Of a DNA stretch of 13,784 bases, positions 4,917 through 4,993 are shown piece by piece (the stretch's first letter is position 1; every line of letters begins with the position of its first letter). Location: positions 1 to 13,784 of the IMG/VR virus record IMGVR_UViG_2548876856_000011; one strand, 5' to 3'. Position numbers and translations under genes: made by a program. Under the pieces are notes generated by a model. The model was not told the DNA's origin and did not search any database. It saw only the letters and a program-made list of their open reading frames with translations. The stretch comes from a virus. Its lineage: Duplodnaviria; Heunggongvirae; Uroviricota; Caudoviricetes.

Positions 4917-4993
4917 TACCCCTCCAAAGTTGAGTTTTCTCAATAGTAATCACTCAAGGAATCTCAAGTCAAGGGTTATTAAGATATCTAAAT
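4917..4993. promoter_or_regulatory. divergent immunity promoter/operator region (PR-like and PRM-like)
   Basis: 77-bp intergenic region. Palindrome TTGAG-tttt-CTCAA at 4930..4943 plus direct TCAAG repeats at 4954..4958, 4964..4968 and 4969..4973. Minus-strand promoter: -35 TTGACT (plus 4967..4972), 18-bp spacer, -10 TACTAT (plus 4943..4948) overlapping the palindrome. Confidence 0.5.

What the first reader, a model, noticed from the sequence alone, without database searches (positions are those of the whole stretch)
4917..4993. Compact operator set: TTGAG-N4-CTCAA palindrome over the cro -10 plus three direct TCAAG repeats
The 77-bp region between the divergent repressor and cro-like genes holds a 14-bp palindrome overlapping the predicted cro -10/+1 and three direct half-site copies facing the repressor gene. 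This layout differs from the three-palindrome lambda OR and may reflect a different binding mode.
Basis: seen in the sequence. Interest (0 to 1): 0.4.

Follow-up and report, generated by a model that had tools for sequence, protein, structure and literature searches.

The report
P22-type prophage operator set
The 77-bp spacer is the ordinary three-site right operator of a P22/DicA-type prophage immunity switch. The palindrome is its strongest repressor site, and the "three direct repeats" come from the weaker middle site plus the cro promoter's -35 box.

Summary
Taken alone in 77 bp, neither feature exceeds chance.

Comparison gives the meaning. The window is an E. coli lambdoid prophage. Its 135-aa repressor is a DicA homologue with a P22 c2-like N-terminal domain, and the divergent gene is a DicC/P22-Cro homologue.

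The spacer aligns base for base with the annotated P22 OR1-OR2-OR3 region:
- **Site centres from the repressor ATG:** -57.5/-33.5/-8.5 here, against -57.5/-34.5/-9.5 in P22.
- **O1:** the palindrome (TTGAG TTTT CTCAA).
- **O2:** TCAAG GAAT CTCAA, matching P22 OR2 (TAAAG GAAT CTTTA).
- **O3:** TTAAG ATAT CTAAA, abutting the ATG.
- **TCAAG copies:** #1 and #2 fall on the two halves of O2. #3 is the complement of the cro -35 box (TTGACT), conserved across all specificities.

Two more copies of the motif flank the -35 of the promoter downstream of the repressor gene. The half-site changes together with the recognition helix across DicA relatives.

So the palindrome as an operator is supported. A non-lambda layout or a new binding mode is not. 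This is a new specificity within a known kind, and binding itself is untested.

The parts
4930..4943 (.). O1, equivalent to P22 OR1 and Qin Oc: the perfect palindrome TTGAG-TTTT-CTCAA, the predicted high-affinity repressor site over the -10 edge and +1 of the cro promoter
   Evidence: Sequence. It is the only perfect copy in the window. Only 3 of 14 columns vary across 17 haplotypes while the flanks vary. It is kept in Buttiauxella L005 and L006. Its centre lies 57.5 bp upstream of the ATG, as in P22 OR1.
4954..4967 (.). O2, equivalent to P22 OR2 and Qin Om: the degenerate site TCAAG-GAAT-CTCAA (8 of 10 half-site positions). It contains TCAAG copy 1 and most of copy 2
   Evidence: 2 mismatches. 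It aligns column for column with P22 OR2 TAAAG-GAAT-CTTTA. Its centre is at -33.5, against -31.5 to -34.5 in relatives. Six of 14 columns vary. In Buttiauxella it is degraded to GCAAG-GAAA-CTCAG.
4979..4992 (.). O3, equivalent to P22 OR3 and Qin Oa: TTAAG-ATAT-CTAAA, lying one base (T4993) upstream of the repressor ATG and covering the predicted repressor promoter -10 and start
   Evidence: 2 mismatches. None of 14 columns varies in 85 loci, including Buttiauxella, and the site is also identical in Citrobacter L007. It matches 13 of 14 positions of the P22 consensus core TTAAG-ATAT-CTTAA (PMC5175364).
4967..4972 (-). -35 hexamer TTGACT of the cro (PR-like) promoter. Its complement AGTCAA carries TCAAG copy 3 (4969-4973)
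   Evidence: The hexamer is identical in P22 PR. GTCAAG or GTCAAT is conserved in all 13 related loci of all specificities.
4943..4948 (-). -10 hexamer TACTAT of the cro promoter (18-bp spacer), with predicted +1 near 4936 inside O1
   Evidence: Population variants nearly all keep the TAnnAT pattern (one haplotype reads TGCTAT). The position corresponds to P22 PR -10 GATAAT, which overlaps OR1.
4957..4962 (+). Predicted -35 (AGGAAT) of the repressor maintenance promoter (PRM-like), inside O2
   Evidence: The hexamer and its 17-bp spacing are identical to the annotated P22 PRM (locus L096 663-691 = AGGAAT-17-TAAGAT). This rests on homology; the start was not mapped here.
4980..4985 (+). Predicted -10 (TAAGAT) of the repressor promoter. 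The start is predicted near 4991, giving a nearly leaderless mRNA
   Evidence: Identical to the P22 PRM -10. The P22 RM transcript starts 4 nt before the c2 ATG. There is no Shine-Dalgarno sequence before 4994.
4689..4916 (-). cro-like gene (75 aa), a DicC / P22 Cro homologue
   Evidence: Pfam P22_Cro, E=1.1e-17. 71% identical to K-12 DicC. PDB 1rzs (named Regulatory protein cro), E=1.9e-12.
4994..5401 (+). Repressor gene (135 aa), a DicA homologue with a P22 c2-like HTH N-terminal domain and no peptidase S24 domain
   Evidence: Pfam HTH_3 only. 56% identical to K-12 DicA over the full length. P22 c2 N-terminal domain, E=2e-15.
5464..5477 (.). OL2-like operator TTGAG-TTTT-ATCAT, just upstream of the -35 of the leftward-type promoter (most E. 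coli haplotypes read TTGAGTTTTCTCAT)
   Evidence: It aligns with P22 OL2 TTAAG-TTTT-CTTCA. It is a perfect TTGAGTTTTCTCAA in Buttiauxella L005.
5500..5513 (.). OL1-like operator ATGAG-AAAA-CTAAA (reverse complement TTTAGTTTTCTCAT), covering the spacer and -10 of the promoter that drives ydfA-like, DicF and dicB
   Evidence: It is nearly invariant across haplotypes while the adjacent spacer 5493-5499 is hypervariable. It aligns with P22 OL1.
5487..5515 (+). PL / dicBp-like promoter TTGACC-17-TAAATT, with predicted +1 near 5522
   Evidence: Both hexamers are identical to the annotated P22 early-left promoter.

Best explanation
The 77-bp spacer is the right operator (OR) of a P22/DicA-type lambdoid immunity switch. 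It differs from P22 and Qin only in operator specificity.

**The sites.** A dimer of the 135-aa repressor (P22 c2-like HTH domain) recognises 14-bp two-fold sites of the form TTGAG-N4-CTCAA. The central 4 bp are A/T-rich and presumably not contacted.
- O1 (4930-4943) is the perfect, strongest site. It lies over the -10 edge and +1 of the cro promoter, so its occupancy shuts off cro and the replication genes behind it.
- O2 (4954-4967) and O3 (4979-4992) are weaker, degenerate sites, 24 and 25 bp further on.
- O2 lies in the spacer of the cro promoter and over the -35 of the repressor's own weak promoter (AGGAAT-17-TAAGAT).
- O3 covers that promoter's -10 and start. It is the likely place where the Cro-like protein, or excess repressor, turns repressor synthesis off.

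**The second operator set.** Two further sites (5464-5477 and 5500-5513) bracket the -35 of the downstream promoter. They let the same repressor silence the ydfA-DicF-dicB operon.

**The TCAAG copies are not a functional unit.** Two fall on the two half-sites of O2, and the third is the complement of the cro -35 hexamer.

**Shown here:** the sequence layout, its homology to annotated P22 features, population and cross-genus conservation, and covariation of half-site with recognition helix.

**Inferred:** actual binding, order of occupancy, cooperativity and transcription start sites.
For: 1. **Gene identities.**
   - The repressor has HTH_3 only. It is 56% identical to DicA, and its N-terminal domain matches P22 c2 at E=2e-15.
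   - Cro matches Pfam P22_Cro, is 71% identical to DicC, and matches PDB 1rzs at E=1.9e-12.
2. **Collinearity with the annotated P22 region.**
   - P22 has OR1-3 abutting the c2 ATG, PR, PRM and an RM start 4 nt before the ATG.
   - Site centres are -57.5/-34.5/-9.5 in P22 and -57.5/-33.5/-8.5 here.
   - The hexamers TTGACT, AGGAAT and TAAGAT are identical.
   - 52 of 83 aligned bases are identical.
3. **Enrichment of the motif.** Copies are confined to the two promoter regions. Under local shuffles P=3e-4 for the spacer and P=0.0025 for the downstream region.
4. **The downstream region aligns with P22 OL2, -35, OL1 and -10**.
5. **Conservation across 85 loci, 17 haplotypes.**
   - Variable columns are 3 of 14 in O1 and 0 of 14 in O3.
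   - The two inter-site spacers vary in 8 of 10 and 5 of 5 columns.
   - Buttiauxella keeps O1, O3, OL1 and OL2 although its flanks have diverged.
6. **Covariation of half-site with recognition helix at fixed geometry**:
   - TTGAG with SGSSISLWE
   - TTAGT with SHVSVSQWE (K-12, whose Oc is experimentally supported, PMC3441716)
   - TTAGA with SHVTISQWE
   - ATAAC with SSVSVFKWE
7. **P22 repressor binding mode.** It binds TTAAG-N4-CTTAA as a dimer and does not contact the central 4 bp. An A-tract centre gives the tightest binding (PMC5175364, PMC4267663). This matches the TTTT centre of O1.
Against: - There are no binding or transcript data for this specificity. A full-text search for the operator string found nothing.
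- In K-12 Qin, the sites equivalent to O2 and O3 (Om, Oa) did not bind DicA when tested alone in vivo (PMC3441716).
- O2 is degraded to 6 of 10 half-site matches in the Buttiauxella relatives. Its conserved centre (AAGGAA) could be kept for the repressor promoter's -35 rather than for binding.
- The total invariance of O3 could equally reflect the -10 and start of the repressor promoter.
- The repressor lacks the S24-type C-terminal domain found in P22 c2 and lambda CI (absent). From general knowledge, not tested here, that domain mediates pairwise cooperativity. Cooperative filling of O1 and O2 is therefore unproven.
Confidence: 0.7

Rival explanations
1. Single-operator switch. Only O1 (and, downstream, OL1/OL2) is a working repressor site. 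O2 and O3 are evolutionary remnants of the P22-type OR2/OR3, or are used only by the Cro-like protein. One repressor dimer at O1 both represses cro and activates the repressor promoter, as proposed for DicA at Oc in K-12.
For: - In K-12, DicA bound Oc but neither Om nor Oa alone. DicA at Oc repressed dicC and was needed for dicA expression (PMC3441716).
- The O2 half-sites decay in Buttiauxella.
- The repressor has no S24 C-terminal domain, the domain that mediates cooperativity in c2 and CI (absence; the role in cooperativity is from general knowledge, not tested here).
- O3 is closer to the P22 consensus (TTAAG), and the Cro recognition helix (AVSQW) is like that of P22 Cro.
Against: - Two extra copies with at most 2 mismatches, at exactly the P22 spacing, are unlikely by chance (P=3e-4).
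- In other DicA-family loci the middle site is a perfect palindrome (L015: two perfect ATAAC-N4-GTTAT sites 25 bp apart). The family therefore does use it.
- Testing sites singly in K-12 would miss cooperative binding.
Confidence: 0.22
2. The palindrome is joined by three direct TCAAG half-sites that are bound in a non-lambda mode, for example by monomers or a head-to-tail array, facing the repressor gene.
For: Three TCAAG copies are present within 20 bp. Copies 1 and 2 are CTCAAG, 10 bp apart, so each contains a full right half-site CTCAA.
Against: - A 5-mer present three or more times occurs in 14% of shuffles.
- Copy 1 becomes GCAAG and copy 2 becomes TCAGG in Buttiauxella relatives whose recognition helix differs at a single residue (SDSSISLWE against SGSSISLWE). 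The C before copy 1 is T in 19 of the 85 loci (12+3+2+1+1), on five of the 17 haplotypes.
- Copy 3 is conserved in loci of unrelated specificity, including P22 and K-12, because it is the -35 TTGAC.
- The DNA-binding domain is homologous to one solved on DNA as a symmetric dimer.
- The downstream operator region has no TCAAG array, only two-fold sites.
Confidence: 0.05
3. Chance features of an A/T-rich promoter region with no operator role.
For: Within the 77 bp alone, neither the palindrome nor the repeats exceed chance.
Against: The motif recurs only at the two promoters that flank the repressor gene. It is conserved across genera, is collinear with annotated P22 operators, and covaries with the recognition helix.
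Confidence: 0.02

Closest known systems
Phage P22 immC right operator (OR1-OR2-OR3 between c2 and cro, with PR and PRM)
   Same: - Divergent c2-like and Cro-like genes sit either side of an approximately 80-bp spacer.
- There are three 5-4-5 two-fold sites, with centres at -57.5, about -34 and about -9 from the repressor ATG, and the third site abuts the ATG.
- The PR -35 (TTGACT) and the PRM hexamers (AGGAAT, TAAGAT) are identical.
- The middle site aligns base for base (TAAAG GAAT CTTTA in P22, TCAAG GAAT CTCAA here).
- The OL region is also collinear.
   Different: - The half-site is TTGAG rather than TTAAG, and the recognition helix is SGSSISLWE rather than SNVAISQWE.
- The repressor is 135 aa with no S24 autocleavage domain, where P22 c2 has 216 aa.
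- There are two rather than three sites at the leftward promoter.
- O2 and O3 are more degenerate than in P22.
E. coli K-12 Qin prophage dicA-dicC region (operators Oc, Om, Oa; dicBp)
   Same: - The repressor is the same length and homologous over its whole length (56%). The Cro-like protein is 71% identical to DicC.
- There is one perfect palindrome over the dicC/cro promoter and a degenerate site abutting the repressor ATG; a middle site (Qin Om) is reported in the literature at the position of O2, but in K-12 it did not reach the 3-mismatch threshold in the scan. K-12 site centres are -59.5 and -9.5.
- Two sites 34-36 bp apart lie at the downstream promoter.
- The controlled operon is the same: a ydfA-like gene, DicF at 6469-6520, and a DicB 100% identical to the K-12 protein.
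   Different: - The operator sequence differs: TTGTTAGTCATAACTAACAA (core TTAGT-CATA-ACTAA) in K-12, TTGAG-TTTT-CTCAA here.
- The recognition helices of both proteins differ.
- Behind cro the window carries a YdaT/CII-like gene and replication genes, so it looks like a less decayed prophage. Isolated phages carry this immunity type (HannyBb and mEp460_ev081, 91% DNA identity).
Phage lambda OR (OR1-OR2-OR3, PR/PRM, CI and Cro)
   Same: The logic is that of a tripartite operator between divergent repressor and cro genes. The repressor mRNA is leaderless or nearly so. A second operator set sits at the leftward promoter.
   Different: - The operators are 14-bp core sites rather than 17-bp sites, with a different HTH lineage (XRE/P22 c2 type).
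- The register relative to the repressor promoter is shifted: the third site covers the -10 and start rather than the spacer.
- There is no RecA-cleavable domain.
Phage 434 operators (14-bp ACAA-N6-TTGT)
   Same: Both have a 14-bp two-fold site read by an XRE-type HTH dimer with a non-contacted A/T-rich centre. The 434 Cro and repressor are detectable homologues of the repressor's N-terminal domain.
   Different: The half-site sequence and length differ (4-6-4 in 434, 5-4-5 here). Homology is much weaker than to P22 c2.

Membership tests
P22-type lambdoid immC right operator | Divergent repressor (c2-type HTH) and Cro (P22_Cro) genes flanking a short spacer | tested here: met
   Pfam HTH_3 and P22_Cro. 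PDB P22 c2 N-terminal domain E=2e-15 and PDB 1rzs (named Regulatory protein cro) E=1.9e-12. The spacer is 77 bp, against 80 bp in P22.
P22-type lambdoid immC right operator | Three two-fold symmetric sites sharing one half-site, about 23-25 bp centre to centre | tested here: met
   Sites at 4930 (0 mismatches), 4954 (2) and 4979 (2), spaced 24 and 25 bp. P=3e-4 for the two extra sites. P22 spacing of 23 and 25 bp was read from the annotated record.
P22-type lambdoid immC right operator | Sites overlap the divergent promoters PR and PRM | tested here: met
   The consensus scan finds PR-like TTGACT-18-TACTAT overlapping O1 and O2. AGGAAT-17-TAAGAT is identical to the annotated P22 PRM and lies within O2 and O3. 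Start sites were not mapped.
P22-type lambdoid immC right operator | A second operator set at the leftward early promoter | tested here: met
   Sites at 5464 and 5500 bracket TTGACC-17-TAAATT and are collinear with P22 OL2 and OL1. No OL3 equivalent was found.
P22-type lambdoid immC right operator | Repressor with a C-terminal S24 / RecA-cleavable oligomerisation domain | tested here: not met
   The protein is 135 aa and Pfam matches only residues 6-71 (HTH). It is therefore filed with the DicA-type short repressors, not as a c2 orthologue.
P22-type lambdoid immC right operator | Physical binding of repressor and Cro to the sites | not testable with these tools
   This needs EMSA, footprinting or ChIP.
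DicA/DicC (Qin-type) immunity module | A repressor of about 135 aa homologous to DicA over its full length, with a divergent DicC homologue | tested here: met
   56% identity over 128 aa, and 71% over 75 aa.
DicA/DicC (Qin-type) immunity module | Oc/Om/Oa layout: a strong palindrome at the dicC promoter plus weaker sites, the last abutting the dicA ATG | tested here: met
   The geometry table gives the window at -57.5/-33.5/-8.5 and K-12 at -59.5/(weak)/-9.5. The operator sequence differs, meaning a new specificity.
DicA/DicC (Qin-type) immunity module | The repressor gene is followed by the dicBp-ydfA...DicF-dicB operon | tested here: met
   DUF1391 YdfA-like gene. Rfam DicF at 76.7 bits, 6469-6520. 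DicB is 100% identical to the K-12 protein.
DicA/DicC (Qin-type) immunity module | Same operator specificity as K-12 DicA (TTGTTAG-N6-CTAACAA) | tested here: not met
   No such site is present. The recognition helix differs (SGSSISLWE against SHVSVSQWE). The window is therefore expected to be heteroimmune to Qin.

The most novel reading that the evidence does not exclude
In DicA-type switches the short repressor lacks the cooperativity domain of c2 and CI. The three-site OR inherited from a P22-like ancestor may then have been re-partitioned.
- The repressor would use only the TTGAG-type site O1, and from it both repress cro and activate its own promoter.
- The P22-consensus-like O3 (TTAAG-ATAT-CTAAA) would serve as a Cro-specific site.
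- The two proteins would then read different half-site variants rather than ranking the same sites differently.
Probability: 0.15. Interest if true: 0.45.

Novelty: new member of a known kind. Interest (0 to 1): 0.17.

Why it matters
This immunity type is widespread. The 901-bp region around it occurs nearly full-length in 796 of 5,426 complete E. coli genomes. It also occurs in isolated phages (HannyBb and mEp460_ev081).

It controls the dicBF cell-division and phage-exclusion operon, but with an operator specificity that differs from the studied K-12 DicA. Knowing the operator (TTGAG-N4-CTCAA) and the site map has three uses:
- It predicts which prophages are homo- or heteroimmune.
- It gives ready targets for reporter, ChIP and mutagenesis work.
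- It provides a natural series of specificity swaps for P22 c2-type HTH domains: TTAAG, TTGAG, TTAGT, TTAGA and ATAAC, each with its matching recognition helix.

It does not reveal a new regulatory principle.

Tried and rejected
- **Statistics on the 77 bp alone.** The first script timed out.
- **Alternative site using the first CTCAA (TAGTA-ATCA-CTCAA, centre -43.5).** Rejected for these reasons:
  - it has 3 mismatches;
  - it overlaps O2 and abuts O1;
  - its C at 4953 is polymorphic;
  - it is broken in Buttiauxella;
  - it has no counterpart in P22.
- **Automatic choice of the 'best palindrome' per locus.** This picked spurious A/T palindromes in several loci. It was replaced by scans with the half-site read from each locus's O1.
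- **Original dicA/dicC sequence paper (PMC311701).** Not held. Oc/Om/Oa information came from PMC3441716 and PMC10448788.
- **Reg-Seq paper.** It gave no dicA start site, because no active RNAP site lay in their window.
- **Literature on this specificity.** A full-text search for the operator string and for mEp460 found nothing on these operators.
- **tblastn of the repressor against the phage collection.** Only two phages carry this immunity type, so it added no divergent same-specificity relatives. The genome-contig scan gave only two Buttiauxella loci and one Citrobacter locus above 60% identity. The conservation test of O2 therefore stays thin.
- **CII-type direct-repeat activator site.** I considered this as the meaning of the TCAAG copies and rejected it. 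In P22 the C1 site and PRE lie inside the c1 gene, not in the c2-cro spacer.

Full report
**1. What is in the sequence**

The spacer 4917-4993 is 77 bp and 34% G+C. It separates a minus-strand gene starting at 4916 (75 aa) from a plus-strand gene starting at 4994 (135 aa).
- TTGAG-TTTT-CTCAA lies at 4930-4943.
- TCAAG occurs at 4954, 4964 and 4969.
- A consensus scan finds one minus-strand sigma-70-like promoter, TTGACT (4972-4967), an 18-bp spacer, then TACTAT (4948-4943).
- The palindrome therefore covers the end of the -10 and the predicted +1 (about 4936).

**2. Is it more than chance?**

Within the 77 bp alone, no:
- 44% of dinucleotide shuffles contain some perfect 5+5 inverted repeat with a gap of 0-8.
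- 7.6% contain one with a gap of exactly 4.
- 14% contain a 5-mer present three or more times.

TCAAG is not enriched in the window either, with 21 copies against 33 expected.

In context, yes.
- Copies of the full 14-mer with at most 2 mismatches occur three times in 13.8 kb (0.19 expected), at 4930, 5464 and 5500. These lie at the two promoter regions on either side of the repressor gene.
- When the central 4 bp are left free, five of the 12 window-wide hits with at most 2 mismatches cluster at 4930, 4954, 4979, 5464 and 5500.
- Under local shuffles, two extra sites in 4944-4993 have P=3e-4, and two sites in 5402-5530 have P=0.0025.

**3. What the genes are**

The window is an E. coli lambdoid prophage.
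- The 901 bp around the finding are 100% identical to many E. coli chromosomes. They are present nearly full-length in 796 of 5,426 complete genomes.
- They are 91% identical to the phages HannyBb and mEp460_ev081.
- The repressor has only an HTH_3 domain, at residues 6-71. It is 56% identical over its whole length to K-12 DicA. Its N-terminal domain matches the P22 c2 DNA-binding domain, which has been solved on DNA (E=2e-15).
- The divergent gene is a P22_Cro family member. It is 71% identical to DicC and matches PDB 1rzs, whose molecule is named Regulatory protein cro (E=1.9e-12).
- Behind it lie a YdaT/CII-like gene and O/P-like replication genes.
- Downstream of the repressor lie a ydfA-like gene, DicF (6469-6520) and a DicB 100% identical to the K-12 protein. 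Further downstream are an excisionase gene, an integrase gene and tRNA-Ser.

**4. The spacer is collinear with P22 OR**

The RefSeq record for P22 annotates the following:
- OR1-OR3 as a 66-bp block ending at the base before the c2 ATG;
- PR;
- PRM, spanning AGGAAT-17-TAAGAT;
- an RM transcript start 4 nt before the ATG.

Reading that sequence gives 18-bp operators centred 57.5, 34.5 and 9.5 bp upstream of the ATG. The three window sites are centred at -57.5, -33.5 and -8.5.

The alignment is gap-poor, with 52 of 83 bases identical:

| | Middle site through the ATG |
|---|---|
| P22 | ...ACTAAAGGAATCTTTAGTCAAGTTTATTTAAGATGACTTAACTATG |
| window | ...CACTCAAGGAATCTCAAGTCAAGGGTTATTAAGATATCTAAATATG |

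This gives the following correspondences:
- O2 here (TCAAG GAAT CTCAA) is the positional homologue of P22 OR2 (TAAAG GAAT CTTTA).
- The -35 of PR (TTGACT) is identical in the two.
- Both PRM hexamers are identical and equally spaced (AGGAAT 4957-4962, TAAGAT 4980-4985).
- This predicts a repressor mRNA start near 4991, so a nearly leaderless mRNA. No Shine-Dalgarno sequence precedes 4994.

The downstream region is collinear with P22 OL2, -35 TTGACC, OL1 and -10 TAAATT.

**5. What the TCAAG copies are**

- Copy 1 (4954-4958) is the degenerate left half of O2.
- Copy 2 (4964-4968) is the right half CTCAA shifted by one base.
- Copy 3 (4969-4973) is the complement of the -35 TTGAC.

The comparative data agree with this reading.
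- In Buttiauxella relatives, whose recognition helix differs at a single residue, copy 1 is GCAAG and copy 2 is TCAGG.
- GTCAAG or GTCAAT is conserved in all 13 related loci, including K-12 Qin and P22, whose operators are different.
- Among 85 loci (17 haplotypes), columns vary as shown below.

| Segment | Variable columns |
|---|---|
| O1 | 3 of 14 |
| O3 | 0 of 14 |
| O2 | 6 of 14 |
| Spacer 4944-4953 | 8 of 10 |
| Spacer 4974-4978 | 5 of 5 |

- The variable positions in 4944-4948 nearly all keep the TAnnAT pattern of a -10 (one haplotype reads TGCTAT).

**6. Family-wide test**

I read the half-site from each locus's own O1 and scanned its OR and OL regions. The geometry was the same in every specificity class:
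- O1 at -56.5 to -59.5;
- O2, where detectable, at -31.5 to -34.5;
- O3 at -8.5 to -11.5;
- two OL sites 34-36 bp apart.

The half-site changes together with the recognition helix.

| Half-site | Recognition helix |
|---|---|
| TTGAG | S(G/D)SSISLWE |
| TTAGT | SHVSVSQWE (K-12) |
| TTAGA | (A/S)HVTISQWE |
| (A/G)TAAC | SSVSVFKWE |

- In L015 the first two sites are both perfect palindromes 25 bp apart, so the middle site is real in the family.
- In L006 the variant CTGAG appears in both O1 and OL2.

**7. Fit to what is known experimentally**

For P22:
- The repressor binds as a dimer to ATTTAAGATATCTTAAAT. It contacts the TTAAG half-sites and not the central 4 bp (PMC5175364).
- An A-tract centre gives the tightest binding (PMC4267663).
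- O1's TTTT centre fits a high-affinity site.

For K-12 Qin (PMC3441716):
- The 20-bp Oc palindrome is the DicA site.
- DicA at Oc represses dicC and is required for dicA expression.
- The sequence-predicted Om and Oa did not bind DicA when tested singly.

DicC binds on both sides of dicA (PMC11430063). DicA is not RecA-cleavable and is relieved by an antirepressor (PMC10448788).

**8. Mechanism proposed**

| Step | Basis |
|---|---|
| Repressor dimers fill O1 and block the cro promoter | inferred from position and homology |
| O2 and O3 are weaker sites. O2 may be filled cooperatively. O3, over the -10 and start of the repressor promoter, would shut off repressor synthesis when bound by Cro or by excess repressor | inferred |
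| OL1 and OL2 silence the dicBF-type operon | inferred from position, and shown for K-12 DicA at dicBp |

The main uncertainty is whether O2 and O3 are used by this short repressor at all (the single-operator rival, about 0.2).

**9. Verdict**

This is a real operator region, correctly located, and the palindrome is its principal site. The layout is the ordinary tripartite lambdoid (P22/DicA) one, not a departure from it. It is a new and apparently uncharacterised specificity within a known kind. A full-text search for the operator string found no paper. Interest is low to modest.

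Noticed in passing
window 6469-6520 and 6695-6883: There is a DicF sRNA (Rfam, 76.7 bits) and a DicB 100% identical to K-12 DicB downstream of a repressor that is only 56% identical to K-12 DicA. The same dicBF cargo therefore sits under a different immunity specificity, a mosaic exchange of the immunity module.
   Followed up: partly
window 4977-4994: O3 with its flanks (TATTAAGATATCTAAATA) matches the P22 consensus core TTAAG-ATAT-CTTAA at 13 of 14 positions. The Cro-like protein keeps a recognition helix like that of P22 Cro (AVSQW), while the repressor's helix has diverged. This hints that Cro and repressor may prefer different half-site variants, or that there is partial cross-talk with P22-type Cro proteins.
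   Followed up: partly
window 5493-5499: The 7-bp stretch between the -35 TTGACC and OL1 is hypervariable among E. coli prophage haplotypes (AATATTC, AACATTC, AATTTTC, AAGCGCC, TGTTAAC and others). It is flanked by almost invariant blocks, which makes a sharp natural footprint of the promoter and operator elements.
   Followed up: partly
L006 (Buttiauxella gaviniae), OR and OL regions: The same variant half-site CTGAG occurs in both O1 and OL2 of this locus. This is a parallel change at two separate operators.
   Followed up: no
window 5420-5448: An inverted repeat AAAGCC...GGCTTT, with an inner TACATT/AATGTA pairing and followed by a T-run, lies just after the repressor stop. It is probably the repressor gene's terminator, separating that gene from the downstream promoter. 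The simple terminator scan did not report it.
   Followed up: no
window 9694-11064 and 12056-13559: An excisionase gene (9694-9897), an integrase gene (9897-10922) and tRNA-Ser(CGA) (10975-11064, minus strand) mark the prophage end. A second, P4-type integrase (12282-13559) sits next to tRNA-Asn (12056-12131). This suggests a second integrated element directly adjacent.
   Followed up: no
L003, L004, L008 (genome-contig hits): Contigs labelled as MAGs of Bacillota, Veillonella parvula and Collinsella carry E. coli-type DicA immunity regions. L003 and L004 are 96% identical in protein to the window's repressor; L008 is 57% identical and of the K-12 type. This is most likely binning contamination by Enterobacteriaceae prophage DNA.
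   Followed up: no
L007 (Citrobacter braakii), OR and OL regions: This locus is a hybrid. Its repressor recognition helix (SHATISLWE) differs from the window's, and its O1 is TTGAG-TTTA-TTTAA inside a longer TTGTT...AACAA palindrome. Its O3 (TTAAGATATCTAAA) is identical to the window's, and its Cro recognition helix is nearly the same (DRSAVSQW against DPSAVSQW).
   Followed up: no
window 7128-9635: An 835-aa ORF has a C-terminal Rv2179c-like 3'-5' exonuclease domain. It occupies the position where mEp460_ev081 is annotated with an 'exodeoxyribonuclease encoded by cryptic prophage CP-933P'. The N-terminal 650 residues have no Pfam match.
   Followed up: no
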